Assembly: GCA_964604195.1 (NCBI GenBank)
Contig: CAZRXW010000001.1
Location: 2,358-66,357, forward strand
DNA from: an uncultured Bdellovibrionales bacterium
GTDB taxonomy: Bacteria > Patescibacteriota > Minisyncoccia > Moranbacterales > UBA1568
Direction of reading: 5' to 3'
Length of the DNA: 64,000 bases
The notes under the pieces were generated by a model. The model was given only the letters and a program-made list of their open reading frames with translations. It searched no databases and had not been told where the DNA came from. Of this stretch, positions 1,554-58,170 are shown in pieces. The position numbers and the translations under genes are program-made. Position 1 is the first letter of the stretch; each line of letters opens with the position of its first letter.

Positions 1554-1640
1554 ATAAGCCATTTATTTTGCTTTCTTGGCGTTAGTTTTCTGTTGACTAA
1601 AATTGTTTTTTGTGATATGATGGTCCAGTTGGAAGATCTT

Positions 1641-2340
1641 TTACAAAACAGGTTGGACTACTGCGCTACGGTGTGGAAAGTCCGGACATCGACCCTCTCA
1701 TTTTTGGAGAGGGAAGGGTAGTGGGTAACGCCCACACGTCGTGAGACGCGAGGTGCGAGCAGAGACGCTCATGGAATGAGAATTTCAGAGCCCTTGTCTT
1801 TGACAAGGTGAGTCCTCGTAGTGATATGAGGGGTGAAACGGCTAAATCCTTACTTCGATGCAAGGTCGTGTCCCGCACCTTTTCAGGTTGATAAAGATAA
1901 TTTTGGTATATACCAGATGACCGTCTTTTTAGAGAGATGGTTGTTGGTTTACGAGTCTGAAAAGGTGCGGGAAGAACCGCAAAGATTTCTCTAGTAATAG
2001 AGAAGCAAGAGAAATAGTAGTCACCCCGCACCTTTTAGTCTTGAGAGAGTTTTATGTACTATATGTACTGAGGAGCAGGCAAAAAGATATTTTCTATATT
2101 GGCTGTACTGAAGATCTTAAGAAAAGAATTCTTCAGCACAACAATGGAGAGTCTCGAGCCACAAAGTCCGCTGCTCTTTGGGAGTTGATATATTACGAGG
2201 CTTATACTTCTTTAAGTTTAGCGAGACGTCGTGAGTTGAGGTTAAAACATCATGGAAAAGGTTTAGCTGAACTCAAAAAGAGAGTTATTGAAGACTAAAA
2301 GGTGCGGGGTACAGAATCCGGCTTATAGACCTGTTTTGTA
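1641..2340 (+). ncRNA. rnpB: RNase P RNA (bacterial type), ~700 nt with large ORF-containing insertion
   Basis: P4 5' strand GGAAAGTCCGGAC at 1675-1687. Universal GGGTAACGCC at 1723-1732. AGGGGTGAAACGG and CAAGG elements follow. P4 3' strand ACAGAATCCGGCTTA at 2311-2325. Terminal P1 pairing ACAAAACAGGT (1643-1653) with ACCTGTTTTGT (2329-2339). No protein-coding signal on + strand in 1560-2040. Confidence 0.75.
2041..2298 (+). CDS. GIY-YIG nuclease family protein (COG2827/YhbQ-like, 85 aa) encoded inside the RNase P RNA gene
   Basis: ATG 2041, TAA 2296-2298. N-terminal FYVLYVLRS...IFYIGCTEDLKKRILQHN matches the GIY-YIG motif pattern, followed by conserved R/E-rich helix (LARRRELRLK). Lies entirely in the loop of a 13-bp hairpin, CCCCGCACCTTTT 2024-2036 paired with AAAAGGTGCGGGG 2297-2309. 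Confidence 0.7.
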   Translation: MREFYVLYVLRSRQKDIFYIGCTEDLKKRILQHNNGESRATKSAALWELIYYEAYTSLSLARRRELRLKHHGKGLAELKKRVIED

Positions 2341-2372
2341 AAAGTGCTTTCAATTATTAGTTATTCAAGCTT

Positions 2373-57973: not shown

Positions 57974-58049
57974 GGGTGCGTAGCTCAGTCGGTAGAGCAG
58001 TGGCCTTTTAAGCCAACGGTCGAGGGTTCGATTCCCCCCGCACCCACCA
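57974..58049 (+). tRNA. tRNA-Lys (anticodon TTT), CCA encoded
   Basis: Acceptor GGGTGCG/CGCACCC; D arm GCTC-AGTCGGTA-GAGC; anticodon loop CTTTTAA; T loop TTCGATT; 3' ACCA. Confidence 0.8.
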
Positions 58050-58069
58050 TACTTATTTTTTGAAATGAG

Positions 58070-58130
58070 CTTTTAAGCCAACGGTCGAGGGTTTCCGTCC
58101 GAAGGAGGACGCTTCCCCCCCGCACCCACC
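58070..58130 (+). other. partial duplicate of tRNA-Lys 3' half with 22-nt hairpin insertion (tRNA fragment / att-like remnant)
   Basis: CTTTTAAGCCAACGGTCGAGGGTT (identical to 58005-58028) + TCCGTCCGAAGGAGGACGCTTC + CCCCCCCGCACCCACC (identical to the tRNA 3' end); no 5' half present. Confidence 0.5.
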
Positions 58131-58170
58131 CTTATCTCCTCATGGTATACTAGAGGAAAGTCAAAAATGT

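What the first reader, a model, noticed from the sequence alone, without database searches (positions are those of the whole stretch)
1641..2340. RNase P RNA gene carrying a complete GIY-YIG ORF inside a duplicated terminal hairpin
All universal RNase P RNA hallmarks are present:
- GGAAAGTCCGGAC at 1675-1687.
- GGGTAACGCC at 1723-1732.
- ACAGAATCCGGCTTA at 2311-2325.
- An 11-bp P1 closure between 1643-1653 and 2329-2339.

They enclose about 700 nt, roughly twice the normal length. The extra sequence is a hairpin, CCCCGCACCTTTT (2024-2036) paired with AAAAGGTGCGGGG (2297-2309), whose 260-nt loop is exactly an 85-aa COG2827/YhbQ-type GIY-YIG ORF (2041-2298). The same stem sequence occurs once more upstream (1870-1883 paired with 1961-1974) enclosing an AT-rich 77-nt loop, so the helix module is tandemly duplicated. 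The segment after the first copy (GGTGCGGGAAGAACCGCAAAG, 1963-1983) resembles a degenerate copy of the true 3' P4 strand region (GGTGCGGGGTACAGAATCCGGC).

This looks like a nuclease-gene insertion or homing-type event in a helix near the 3' end of rnpB (P18 by position; not confirmed by structural alignment), with target duplication. Insertions of this kind are known for rRNA genes in CPR bacteria. I am not aware of one described for RNase P RNA.
Basis: partly seen in the sequence, partly recalled or inferred. Interest (0 to 1): 0.8.

Follow-up and report, generated by a model that had tools for sequence, protein, structure and literature searches.

The report
Nuclease-gene hairpin inside RNase P RNA
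The gene for the RNA enzyme RNase P in this candidate-phyla-radiation (CPR) bacterium is interrupted near its 3' end by a long hairpin carrying a small GIY-YIG nuclease gene, and the same hairpin-plus-nuclease module proves to be a widespread, apparently mobile insert of rRNA, RNase P RNA and tRNA loci that had only been noted, without its hairpin, in rRNA genes.

Summary
A class-A rnpB (about 1629-2353) is split by a 288-nt module (2023-2310): a perfect 20-bp inverted repeat enclosing an 85-aa GIY-YIG ORF. The strands on both sides pair with the 5' part of rnpB, with compensatory changes across four lineages.

Corrections: the insert lies between the P2 and P4 3' strands (J2/4), not in P18. 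The supposed degenerate P4 copy is the conserved P15 3' strand. There is no target duplication.

The main new result is that the hairpin belongs to the ORF, not to rnpB. Of 80 homologous loci, at least 48 are bracketed by the same arm core (CCCGCACC/GGTGCGGG). Forty-one sit in or against structured-RNA genes (19 in 23S, 10 in 16S, 9 in rnpB at two sites, 3 beside tRNAs), and every rRNA or rnpB copy is co-oriented with its host. Stem mismatches are G.U-biased on the sense strand (39:8), dN/dS is 0.05-0.27, ORF-less copies share genome-specific arm variants, and syntenic relatives lack the module.

Best reading: a selfish, IVS-like palindromic GIY-YIG element whose RNA stem extrudes the ORF. Whether it is excised was not tested. 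GIY-YIG inserts are known in CPR rRNA genes. An rnpB host and the conserved arms were not found described.

The parts
1593..1621 (+). Sigma-70-type promoter of rnpB (TTGACT, 17 nt, TG-extended TATGAT)
   Evidence: 10 of 12 consensus matches with TG before the -10 hexamer. It lies just upstream of the start of the extended P1. The same promoter architecture is seen in L002, L121 and L127.
1629..2353 (+). Whole rnpB transcription unit (class-A RNase P RNA, bounded by the extended P1), including both hairpin inserts
   Evidence: RF00010 hits at 1645-2070 and 2254-2341. Extended P1 inverted repeat 1629-1653 with 2329-2353.
1643..1662 (+). P1 5' strand (1643-1653) and P2 5' strand (1656-1662, GACTACT)
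   Evidence: P1 11 bp with 2 pairs changed on both sides, P2 7 bp with 3 pairs changed on both sides, all paired in all 4 lineages.
1675..1687 (+). P4 5' strand (GGAAAGTCCGGAC)
   Evidence: pairs with 2318-2324 in 7 invariant pairs around the usual bulged U.
1871..1972 (+). ORF-less hairpin with the same arms (CCCGCACCTTTT / AAAAGGTGCGGG) in the P15-P17 arm; probably a non-autonomous copy of the module
   Evidence: -50.7 kcal/mol, z = -6.5. Present in L004 and L010, absent in L002. The loop has no detectable GIY-YIG remnant. ORF-less copies sharing the genome-specific arm variant occur in other genomes.
1986..2005 (+). P18 (8 bp, GTAA loop), intact and not the insertion site
   Evidence: 7 of 8 pairs show compensatory changes. 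CM alignment.
2016..2022 (+). P2 3' strand (AGTAGTC), the last rnpB element before the insert
2023..2310 (+). The inserted module: 5' arm 2023-2042, GIY-YIG ORF, 3' arm 2291-2310 (perfect 20-bp stem)
   Evidence: The arms are nearly invariant in 4 lineages although the ORF is only about 70% identical at protein level. The same arm core brackets at least 48 of 80 homologues elsewhere.
2041..2298 (+). GIY-YIG ORF (85 aa from TTG 2041). The relatives' ATG corresponds to 2054 and is out of frame here because of a 4-nt deletion
   Evidence: The invariant columns include the residues I take to be catalytic (Y8, Y19, G21, R29, H33, E65; N34 in more than 90% of sequences). dN/dS is 0.05-0.27.
2311..2353 (+). 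P4 3' strand (2311-2325, ACAGAATCCGGCTTA) and P1 3' strand (2329-2339, extended to 2353)

Best explanation
The window carries one functional class-A RNase P RNA gene of a Moraniibacteriota-like CPR bacterium. The gene has been colonised by a palindrome-bracketed GIY-YIG module.

The module has two conserved inverted arms (outer core CCCGCACC / GGTGCGGG) enclosing an 82-85 aa bare GIY-YIG nuclease gene. It sits in J2/4, between the P2 and P4 3' strands. In related rnpB genes this peripheral position holds either nothing or a small hairpin.

The module belongs to a large family of such elements. The family includes ORF-less hairpin derivatives, one of which probably forms the P15-17 hairpin at 1871-1972. 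Members populate peripheral positions of 16S, 23S and RNase P RNA genes, tRNA flanks and promoter-proximal sites, mainly in CPR bacteria.

Shown:
- The anatomy and the closure of rnpB across the insert.
- That the arms travel with the ORF.
- Co-orientation with the host RNA gene.
- Pairing of the arms selected on the sense (RNA) strand.
- Purifying selection on the nuclease.
- Host-site switching in the protein tree.
- Presence/absence among syntenic relatives.

Inferred:
- The module is transcribed from the rnpB promoter as part of the precursor.
- The 20-bp stem forms in the RNA and extrudes the ORF, so the ribozyme core can fold.
- The stem is then either cut by a double-strand-specific RNase, as for rRNA intervening sequences, or kept as a helix expansion. 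Cutting would release an mRNA-like loop and leave a two-piece RNase P RNA held together by P4 and the long P1.
- The nuclease serves spread or retention of the element, probably by recognising the arm duplex or a hairpin/cruciform structure rather than a long specific target.
For: rnpB identity and closure:
- RF00010 hits lie on both sides of the insert.
- All 33 proposed P1, P2, P4 and P18 pairs form in all 4 lineages, with 12 pairs changed on both sides. Slid controls give about 40% paired.
- A promoter lies directly upstream.

Conserved residency:
- The same arrangement is present in L001, L002/L003, L004-L009 (including complete genome CP064975.1) and L010.

Arms belong to the module:
- 48 of 80 genome loci have the bracketing repeat with the CCCGCACC core at up to 2 mismatches, at unrelated host sites.
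- Only 1 of 60 ORF-free rnpB genes has paired arms.
- P3 lacks the arms where the ORF is in J2/4. In L016 and L039 (ORF in P3) J2/4 lacks them; L038 and L042 (ORF in P3) carry a short ORF-less arm hairpin there.

Hosts:
- 19 in 23S, 10 in 16S, 9 in rnpB and 3 beside tRNAs, out of 80 loci. Every rRNA or rnpB host is on the ORF strand.

RNA-level stem:
- 39 G.U-type against 8 A.C-type mismatches on the sense strand in 55 stems, p = 6e-6.
- Folding z-scores of about -6.

Active gene:
- The invariant residues of the family fit the GIY-YIG catalytic set.
- dN/dS is 0.05-0.27, with synonymous sites saturated between lineages.

Mobility:
- The protein tree mixes host sites. P3-resident rnpB copies fall in at least 5 places.
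- ORF-less copies share genome-specific arm variants.
- Syntenic L121 and L127 lack both L002 elements.
- 15 of 21 intergenic or tRNA-adjacent copies have 4-13 nt flanking direct repeats.

Literature frame:
- GIY-YIG ORFs in CPR rRNA insertions are non-intron. CPR rRNA insertions are removed from transcripts. Classical IVSs are cut by RNase III (PMC11270868).
Against: - No RNA data: excision, retention and translation of the ORF are all untested.
- No close relative (more than 90% rnpB identity) with an empty site was found. L121 and L127 are syntenic but diverged.
- The window's own ORF has lost its canonical ATG, so this copy may be translationally impaired.
- The loop of the upstream hairpin shows no ORF remnant (E 0.76), so calling it a derivative rests on its arms only.
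- A GIY-YIG protein is not a known transposase, and the flanking direct repeats vary in length, so the mobility mechanism is unknown.
- The G.U bias could be inflated by strand-asymmetric C-to-T mutation.
- The protein tree is built from about 80 residues and is weakly resolved.
- The ORF has stayed at this site for a long time under purifying selection, which equally fits a domesticated function.
Confidence: 0.72

Rival explanations
1. Classical homing: a site-specific GIY-YIG homing endonuclease, free-standing or intron-borne, cut an empty rnpB allele and was copied in by recombination, duplicating part of the target.
For: The ORF is a GIY-YIG family member. The module is absent from syntenic relatives L121 and L127. 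The J2/4-resident ORFs form one clade at one site.
Against: - There is no ribozyme. The loop is filled by the ORF, and Rfam finds no intron even at E up to 10.
- The protein is only the catalytic domain. TIGR01453 (group I intron endonuclease) scores 16.4 bits against a cutoff of 56, over residues 8-43 only.
- Close homologues sit at many unrelated sites.
- No target duplication is seen at RNA-gene sites.
- The 'degenerate P4' is the conserved P15 strand.
- Tsurumaki et al. [quoted passage not shown]
Confidence: 0.1
2. Domesticated expansion: the hairpin is kept in mature RNase P RNA as an enlarged helix at J2/4, and the GIY-YIG protein is a host factor, for example an RNA-processing or repair nuclease, co-expressed with structural RNAs rather than a selfish gene.
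For: - Long vertical residency with dN/dS of 0.05-0.27 and saturated dS.
- Strict co-orientation with host RNA genes.
- Nearly invariant arms.
- J2/4 naturally holds small hairpins in relatives.
Against: - Patchy presence among syntenic relatives.
- The tree mixes host sites.
- ORF-less copies, tandem copies and flanking direct repeats are typical of mobile DNA.
- Decayed copies exist: the window's start codon is frameshifted and L084 has an in-frame stop.
Confidence: 0.12
3. The arms are native host helices (P3, P16 and a J2/4 hairpin of CPR rnpB, and equivalent rRNA helices), and only the ORF is the mobile unit, inserting into loops of CCCGC/GCGGG-type hairpins.
For: - L038 and L042 carry a 12-bp arm hairpin with a 3-6 nt loop at J2/4.
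- Some ORF-free rnpB genes have a J2/4 hairpin with a similar outer stem, for example L105 ATCCCGC...GCGGGAT and L092 TCCTGC...GCGGGA.
- The Rfam consensus for P3 is C-rich paired with G-rich.
Against: - The same 9-10 nt core, and often the same inner arm, recurs at unrelated 16S, 23S, tRNA-flank and promoter sites.
- Only 1 of 60 ORF-free rnpB genes has paired arms.
- Arm variants are genome-specific and shared by all copies in a genome, whatever the host site.
- The arms also flank homologues in Gammaproteobacteria and Cloacimonadota.
Confidence: 0.05
4. Artefact or pseudogene: an assembly chimera, or a dead rnpB disrupted by an unrelated gene.
For: RF00010 fails its gathering score.
Against: - The same architecture is present in at least 9 independent assemblies, including a closed 1.2-Mb genome.
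- There are compensatory changes in helices that span the insert.
- The P4 3' strand is invariant.
- A strong promoter is present.
Confidence: 0.01

Closest known systems
Non-intron insertion sequences encoding GIY-YIG proteins in CPR 16S/23S rRNA genes (Brown et al. 2015; Tsurumaki et al. 2024, PMC11270868)
   Same: The same protein family and the same kind of organism. No intron ribozyme. Scattered sites at the tips or bases of helices. Twenty-nine of my 80 homologous loci are exactly such rRNA insertions.
   Different: The host here is the RNase P RNA gene. The terms 'inverted repeat', 'hairpin', 'RNase P' and 'tRNA' do not occur in that paper, so it does not treat the conserved arms, the ORF-less derivatives or the non-rRNA hosts.
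Intervening sequences (IVS) of bacterial 23S rRNA, some with an ORF (S23p / 23S_rRNA_IVP in Coxiella and Leptospira), excised by RNase III without re-ligation
   Same: A long stem extends or replaces a peripheral helix, with an optional ORF in the loop. The element is co-transcribed with its host and patchily distributed. Several 23S copies found here lie just 3' of the conserved block around position 450, which is where I recall helix 25, a classical IVS site.
   Different: A different ORF family, a nuclease. A different host gene, a ribozyme. The stem sequence is conserved across sites and phyla. Excision was not tested here.
REP/RAYT (REPIN) systems and MITE/autonomous-transposon pairs
   Same: A protein gene bracketed by inverted copies of a short conserved palindromic motif. 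Short protein-less copies in the same genome share the genome-specific variant. Intergenic copies have flanking direct repeats.
   Different: The protein is GIY-YIG, not an HUH or DDE transposase. Direct-repeat length is variable. There is a strong preference for structured-RNA genes and for the sense orientation. Transposition has not been demonstrated.
GIY-YIG homing endonucleases of group I introns (I-TevI type)
   Same: The GIY-YIG catalytic fold, and residence inside an essential gene.
   Different: No intron, no DNA-binding domain (82-85 aa against about 245 aa, the latter from memory), and many target sites. TIGR01453 scores below its cutoff.
UPF0213 / YhbQ-type (COG2827) stand-alone small GIY-YIG proteins, e.g. 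PDB 1ZG2 (B. halodurans BH0048)
   Same: Size and single-domain architecture. 1ZG2 is the only solved homologue found by sequence (E 0.008).
   Different: The relationship is distant. No NCBIfam model reaches its cutoff. A palindrome-bracketed genomic context inside RNA genes is not, to my knowledge, a described feature of that family.
Helix P19 of type-B and some type-A RNase P RNAs; 'diverged' CPR RNase P RNAs (Lui et al. 2021, PMC8172020)
   Same: A helix emerging between the P2 and P4 3' strands. CPR rnpB genes that fail covariance-model thresholds, have extended helices and, in 23 of 35 genomes, lack the UGG motif. The window's L15 stretch reads GGGAAGAACC, which I read as lacking that motif too.
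   Different: Here the helix is 20 bp and its loop is a 248-nt stretch almost entirely filled by the protein-coding gene. The P19 assignment rests on my memory of the nomenclature and on the unpaired run in the RF00010 model, not on a structural alignment to a type-B RNA.

Membership tests
Bacterial RNase P RNA class A (RF00010) | Both strands of P4 with the universal sequences | tested here: met
   GGAAAGTCCGG at 1675-1685 and ACAGAATCCGGCTTA at 2311-2325. Seven invariant P4 pairs.
Bacterial RNase P RNA class A (RF00010) | P1 and P2 close the molecule (5' end pairs with 3' end) | tested here: met
   P1 11 bp and P2 7 bp, all paired in all 4 lineages, 5 pairs with changes on both sides. Slid controls 37-47% paired.
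Bacterial RNase P RNA class A (RF00010) | Covariance-model score at or above the gathering threshold (100 bits) | tested here: not met
   57.0 + 21.4 bits in two pieces, because the insert splits the alignment. P3-type relatives with most of the RNA contiguous reach 131-181 bits. Scoring the insert-deleted sequence was not possible with these tools.
Bacterial RNase P RNA class A (RF00010) | GGU motif in L15 that binds the tRNA 3' CCA | tested here: not met
   The L15 region reads GGGAAGAACC. Lui et al. report the motif missing from 23 of 35 CPR genomes.
GIY-YIG nuclease superfamily (PF01541) | Profile match above the curated cutoff | tested here: met
   E 9.3e-13, 48.7 bits against a cutoff of 22.6, residues 5-71.
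GIY-YIG nuclease superfamily (PF01541) | Catalytic residues (two Tyr of the GIY and YIG motifs, Arg, His, Glu, Asn) | tested here: met
   Y8, Y19, G21, R29, H33 and E65 are invariant and N34 is above 90% in 48 sequences. All are invariant among the 12 closest. Assigning these columns to catalytic roles is from my knowledge of the fold.
Classical GIY-YIG homing endonuclease (I-TevI type) | Separate sequence-specific DNA-binding domain | tested here: not met
   The protein is 82-85 aa, all of it catalytic domain. TIGR01453 scores 16.4 bits against a cutoff of 56, N-terminal motif only.
Classical GIY-YIG homing endonuclease (I-TevI type) | Residence in a self-splicing intron, or one conserved target site | tested here: not met
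   No intron model matches. Close homologues occupy many sites in 16S, 23S, rnpB, tRNA flanks and intergenic DNA.
rRNA-type intervening sequence (IVS) | Long stem replacing or extending a peripheral helix of a structural RNA, co-transcribed with it | tested here: met
   A 20-bp perfect stem at J2/4. Co-oriented with the host in every rRNA or rnpB case. Sense-strand G.U bias.
rRNA-type intervening sequence (IVS) | Excised by RNase III without re-ligation, leaving a fragmented RNA | not testable with these tools
   Needs RNA-seq or Northern data. Known for classical IVSs, and 'removed from transcripts' is reported for CPR rRNA insertions (PMC11270868).
rRNA-type intervening sequence (IVS) | Host is an rRNA gene | tested here: not met
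   The host is rnpB.
TIR/TSD mobile element with non-autonomous derivatives (MITE-like or REP/RAYT-like) | Conserved terminal inverted repeats | tested here: met
   48 of 80 loci carry the CCCGCACC core at up to 2 mismatches at the outer ends of a bracketing repeat.
TIR/TSD mobile element with non-autonomous derivatives (MITE-like or REP/RAYT-like) | Protein-less copies with the same ends in the same genome | tested here: met
   Seen in L069, L037, L039, L038/L042/L056, L002, L004, L010 and the window.
TIR/TSD mobile element with non-autonomous derivatives (MITE-like or REP/RAYT-like) | Target-site duplication of fixed length | tested here: inconclusive
   15 of 21 intergenic or tRNA copies have direct repeats, but of 4-13 nt. 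None of 31 RNA-gene copies has one.
TIR/TSD mobile element with non-autonomous derivatives (MITE-like or REP/RAYT-like) | Encodes a recognised transposase (DDE, HUH, serine or tyrosine) | tested here: not met
   The only domain is GIY-YIG.

The most novel reading that the evidence does not exclude
This is the autonomous member of a previously unrecognised class of palindrome-bracketed GIY-YIG mobile elements, analogous to RAYT/REPIN pairs but using a GIY-YIG nuclease. These elements would survive inside essential structured-RNA genes because their arms pair in the transcript and extrude the ORF. In this lineage they would yield an RNase P RNA that is either made in two pieces or carries a translated mRNA as one of its helices.
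Probability: 0.4. Interest if true: 0.85.

Novelty: new variant of a known kind. Interest (0 to 1): 0.72.

Why it matters
RNase P RNA is a universal, essential ribozyme, and I found no report of a bacterial rnpB interrupted by a protein-coding gene.

- **Recurrence.** The arrangement occurs at two sites (P3 and J2/4) in several CPR phyla. This offers a concrete explanation for some of the 'missing' or 'diverged' RNase P RNAs in CPR genomes and MAG completeness checks. It also calls for insertion-tolerant rnpB models.
- **Unification.** The result reframes the GIY-YIG 'insertion sequences' of CPR rRNA genes. They are not site-specific homing elements. They are one family of hairpin-bracketed modules, with ORF-less relatives, that target structured-RNA genes in general.
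- **A testable system.** It allows tests of how an insert is tolerated beside a ribozyme core: excision to a two-piece ribozyme, or retention as a helix expansion. It also allows tests of what a minimal 82-aa GIY-YIG nuclease recognises.

Tried and rejected
- **Gathering-threshold Rfam scan of the window:** no RNase P hit. The permissive local scan was needed.
- **Scoring an insert-deleted rnpB with RF00010:** I substituted pair counting on a hand-built insert-deleted alignment.
- **The search for related loci with a 48-sequence alignment:** It was repeated with 12 sequences.
- **Rfam scan of the last 19 loci:** failed internally. Those loci were classified by signature motifs only. The short GGAAAGTCC motif at up to 2 mismatches was uninformative there.
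- **ORF remnant in the loop of the upstream hairpin** (also tested in L001, L004 and L010): nothing found, best E 0.76. The 'decayed ORF copy' idea is therefore not supported at the protein level.
- **Empty-site search in metagenomes:** No near-identical empty allele of the window's own lineage was found, only syntenic relatives of L002. One script error occurred along the way.
- **Defence-system and phage family membership:** only weak hits to the GIY motif; rejected.
- **Group I or II intron:** rejected.
- **Target duplication / degenerate P4 copy:** rejected.
- **The long 20-25 bp P1 as an adaptation to the insert:** rejected, because the ORF-free relatives L121 and L127 have it too.
- **Resemblance of the arm to a tRNA 3' end:** the window's tRNA at 57974-58046 ends CCCCCCGCACCCA. 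Noted but not pursued, as there is no supporting evidence.
Full report
**1. The observation**

A gathering-threshold Rfam scan of the window finds only two tRNAs. A permissive scan of 1500-2500 finds bacterial class-A RNase P RNA (RF00010) in two pieces. The first, 1645-2070 (57 bits, E 1e-16), contains P1, P2, a short P3, the P4 5' strand, the specificity domain, P15-17, P18 and the P2 3' strand. The second, 2254-2341 (21 bits), contains ACAGAAUCCGGCUUA and the P1 3' strand.

Between the two pieces lies a perfect 20-bp inverted repeat, 2023-2042 with 2291-2310. P1 extends to 25 nt. The 12-mer CCCGCACCTTTT occurs four times, all in this locus, against 0.27 matches at up to 1 mismatch expected by chance.

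The enclosed ORF (2041-2298) matches Pfam GIY-YIG at E 9e-13. The only solved homologue found by sequence is the UPF0213 protein 1ZG2 (E 0.008). No NCBIfam, PADLOC or PHROG model matches beyond the N-terminal GIY motif.

**2. One rnpB gene that closes across the insert**

I built an insert-deleted alignment of four lineages: the window, L002, L004 and L010. I then counted pairs for a structure I specified. All 33 pairs of P1, P2, P4 and P18 form in all four sequences.
- P1 has 2 pairs changed on both sides.
- P2 has 3 pairs changed on both sides.
- P18 has 7 pairs changed on both sides.
- P4 is invariant.

Sliding the 3' partners by 1-3 columns drops pairing to 37-47%. The structure was derived from these same sequences, and there are only four of them.

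A strong promoter (TTGACT, 17 nt, TG-extended TATGAT; 1593-1621) sits just before the extended P1.

**3. Where the insert is**

P18 is the intact GNRA-type hairpin 1986-1993/1998-2005. The insert follows the P2 3' strand (AGTAGTC, 2016-2022) and is followed directly by the P4 3' strand. It is therefore in J2/4, not in P18. From memory of the standard nomenclature, this is where helix P19 occurs in type-B and some type-A RNAs. The RF00010 model has an unpaired, variable run at that place.

GAACCGCAAAGAT is conserved in all relatives, including L002, which has no arm motif there.

**4. The arrangement is conserved in a clade**

Homologues of the ORF are mostly from Patescibacteria. The closest ones lie in the same place: a 500-700 nt gene-free gap, then GIY-YIG, then a Bac_transf gene. 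PheT is usually upstream, as in the window. This is seen in L001, L002/L003 and L004-L009, including the closed Moraniibacteriota genome CP064975.1. L010 from the genome collection has the same rnpB arrangement. All of these give an RF00010 hit that runs up to the ORF.

In the alignment the arms CGCACCTTTTAGTCTT and AAGACTAAAAGGTGCGGG are invariant, while the proteins are only about 70% identical.

Among these ORFs, dN/dS is 0.05-0.27 and synonymous sites are at or near saturation. The residues invariant across the family fit the GIY-YIG catalytic set. The gene has therefore been kept functional at this site for a long time.

The window's own copy is odd. A 4-nt deletion relative to L001 puts the family's ATG (2054) out of frame, giving MYYMY*. 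The ORF remains open only from TTG 2041, which lies inside the stem.

**5. The hairpin belongs to the ORF, not to rnpB**

A scan of one genome per species found at least 583 relatives, and 80 loci were kept. In at least 48 of the 80, the ORF is bracketed by an inverted repeat whose outer end matches CCCGCACC at up to 2 mismatches (variants CCCTCACC, CCCAGCAC, CCCCACACC). Several more carry recognisable variants. Changes in one arm are matched in the other.

*Hosts.* I classified hosts with Rfam, ARAGORN and, for the last batch, signature motifs (because one search failed):

| Host | Loci |
|---|---|
| 23S rRNA | 19 |
| 16S rRNA | 10 |
| rnpB | 9 |
| Directly against a tRNA, with the tRNA 5' part duplicated | 3 |
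| Intergenic | 39 |

One rnpB copy (L010) is at J2/4, like the window. The other eight (L016, L036, L038, L039, L042, L050, L056, L076) have the 3' arm directly followed by AGGAAAGTCC, meaning the module forms P3.

*Orientation.* Every rRNA or rnpB host is on the same strand as the ORF.

*Native or imported arms.*
- P3 has no arm motif in genomes where the ORF is at J2/4.
- Where the ORF is in P3, J2/4 holds nothing in L039 and an unrelated 7-bp hairpin in L016. In L038 and L042 it holds a 12-bp arm hairpin with a 3-6 nt loop and no ORF. The extra arm pair in L056 lies at the corresponding place.
- Only 1 of 60 ORF-free rnpB genes from metagenomes has paired arm motifs.

The arms therefore travel with the module.

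**6. The stem is selected in the RNA**

In 55 bracketing stems (1077 Watson-Crick pairs), transition mismatches are G.U-type on the ORF-sense strand 39 times and A.C-type 8 times (binomial p = 6e-6). The scoring treated both types alike. DNA-level pairing would give symmetry.

A strand-asymmetric mutation bias could contribute. But the result fits the universal co-orientation with host genes, and it fits the folding of both window hairpins well beyond shuffled controls (z = -6.1 and -6.5).

**7. Signs of mobility**

- *ORF-less copies.* ORF-less hairpins carrying the same genome-specific arm variant as the ORF-bearing copy occur nearby. L069 has at least three in its 23S gene, L037 has one in 23S, and L039 has one in rnpB. 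L038, L042 and L056 have a short one near the 3' end of rnpB. L002 has one just 5' of the rnpB -35 box. L004, L010 and the window have one in the P15-17 arm.
- *Host switching.* In a neighbour-joining tree of the roughly 80-residue proteins, the J2/4 copies form one clade whose nearest neighbours are a 16S copy (L011) and an intergenic copy (L013). The P3 copies fall in at least five places among 16S, 23S and intergenic copies. The tree is weakly resolved.
- *Presence/absence.* L121 and L127 are syntenic with L002. They share the upstream gene end, the promoter, P1/P2 and the 3' trailer. They have 18 and 28 nt at J2/4 instead of the 289-nt module, and they lack the promoter-proximal hairpin. 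The two halves of L127's short hairpin resemble the inner arms, so it may be an ORF-deleted relic.
- *Flanking repeats.* 15 of 21 intergenic or tRNA-adjacent copies have 4-13 nt flanking direct repeats, often (GG)TTGAC, a -35-like sequence. None of the 31 RNA-gene copies does. With 25 boundary combinations allowed, roughly 10% of loci would show a 4-nt match by chance.

**8. Mechanism: shown and inferred**

*Shown.* The anatomy; closure of rnpB across the insert; arms linked to the ORF; co-orientation with the host; RNA-strand pairing signal; purifying selection on the nuclease; patchy distribution.

*Inferred.* The module is transcribed from the rnpB promoter within the precursor. No −10-like element is evident between the 5' arm and the start codon in this clade. 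Several other loci do have a TAnAAT-like box there by eye, which I did not test. The stem forms and extrudes the ORF from a peripheral position, so the catalytic core folds.

Classical rRNA IVSs are cut by RNase III, and CPR rRNA insertions are reported to be removed from transcripts (PMC11270868). By analogy, the stem may be cut. That would leave a large 5' piece and a 3' piece of about 40 nt, held together by P4 and a long P1. I give this about 0.4 probability. Retention as a helix expansion is the alternative.

The nuclease most likely acts on the element's own ends, or on hairpin or cruciform DNA, rather than on a long specific target. It is a bare catalytic domain, and its relatives sit at many different sites. 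The actual mode of spread is unknown.

**9. Comparison with what is known**

GIY-YIG ORFs in non-intron insertions of CPR rRNA genes are published (Brown et al. 2015, as cited in Tsurumaki et al. 2024). [quoted passage not shown] The words RNase P, tRNA, hairpin and inverted repeat do not occur in that paper. Lui et al. 2021 found that 10 of 35 closed CPR genomes lacked a detectable RNase P RNA at default thresholds, and described extended or missing helices, without mentioning ORFs.

Full-text searches gave no bacterial case of a GIY-YIG gene in rnpB and no link between GIY-YIG and REP elements. The library excludes most subscription papers, so absence there is not proof.

I therefore file this as a new variant of a known kind: the CPR structural-RNA insertion with a GIY-YIG ORF. 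What is new is the host (a ribozyme, at two sites), the conserved palindromic arms with ORF-less derivatives, and the evidence that the arms pair in the RNA.

**10. Verdict**

Interest 0.72.

Noticed in passing
window 58047-58140: Directly after tRNA 57974-58046 (anticodon loop CUUUUAA, so presumably tRNA-Lys) lies a second, partial copy of its 3' half, running from the anticodon loop to the acceptor end and CCACC. It has a hairpin of about 19 nt (TCCGTCCGAAGGAGGACGC) inserted in the T-loop. It could be an att-like tRNA duplication or a decayed tRNA with an insert.
   Followed up: partly
L028 1440-1810; L034 1460-1845; L089 1440-1800: Three homologous GIY-YIG ORFs sit immediately 5' of an intact tRNA gene (Glu and Arg by ARAGORN for L028 and L034) and are preceded by a duplicate of that tRNA's first 11-30 nt. 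This looks as if the module entered the D-arm region and the tRNA 5' part was duplicated. L028 and L089 lack the typical arms.
   Followed up: partly
L013, L040, L051, L054, L079, L087 (flanks of the module); L002 2283-2440: Intergenic copies are often flanked on both sides by (GG)TTGAC. The 3' copy can serve as the -35 box of a downstream promoter: in L002, GGTGCGGGA-TTGACT-17 nt-TATAAT of rnpB. In L051 and L079 a 3'-arm sequence of the same motif lies just upstream, separated from the ORF hairpin's 5' arm by TTGA.
   Followed up: partly
L012 1440-1800 and L014 200-580: Two modules sit at the tip of the same unidentified host hairpin. Its flanking stem co-varies (CTGGA...TCCAG against TCGGA...TCCGA) and is followed by a T-run. 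It is possibly a terminator or an unannotated structured RNA. No Rfam hit.
   Followed up: no
L059, L061/L063/L065, L085, L086 (Gammaproteobacteria and an unclassified MAG); L060/L064 (Cloacimonadales): Non-CPR homologues also lie in 23S rRNA genes. In L059, L061, L085 and L086 the ORF is surrounded by several REP-like copies of a related motif (for example AATTTAGGTGCGGGAT), sometimes with the motif orientation reversed relative to the ORF.
   Followed up: no
L084 1501-1740: The 16S-resident homologue has an in-frame stop codon (...LKMYKS*YGFLKKR), so it is a decaying copy.
   Followed up: no
window 1970-1981: The L15 region of this rnpB reads GGGAAGAACC, apparently without the GGU motif that pairs with the tRNA 3' CCA. 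This agrees with the report that 23 of 35 CPR RNase P RNAs lack it.
   Followed up: partly
window 1872-1883 / 2297-2308 and 1960-1971 / 2025-2036: Because the two hairpins share arms, alternative cross-pairings are possible: the outer pair enclosing everything, and an inner pair enclosing P15'-P18-P2'. This could be a misfolding hazard, or a 12-bp direct-repeat substrate for deletion. In L004 both 5' arms carry the same C-to-T change (CTCGCACC), which hints at concerted evolution.
   Followed up: no
L053 883-1261: ARAGORN reports a permuted 'tmRNA*' overlapping tRNA-Ala and the start of 23S rRNA. This is almost certainly a false positive.
   Followed up: no
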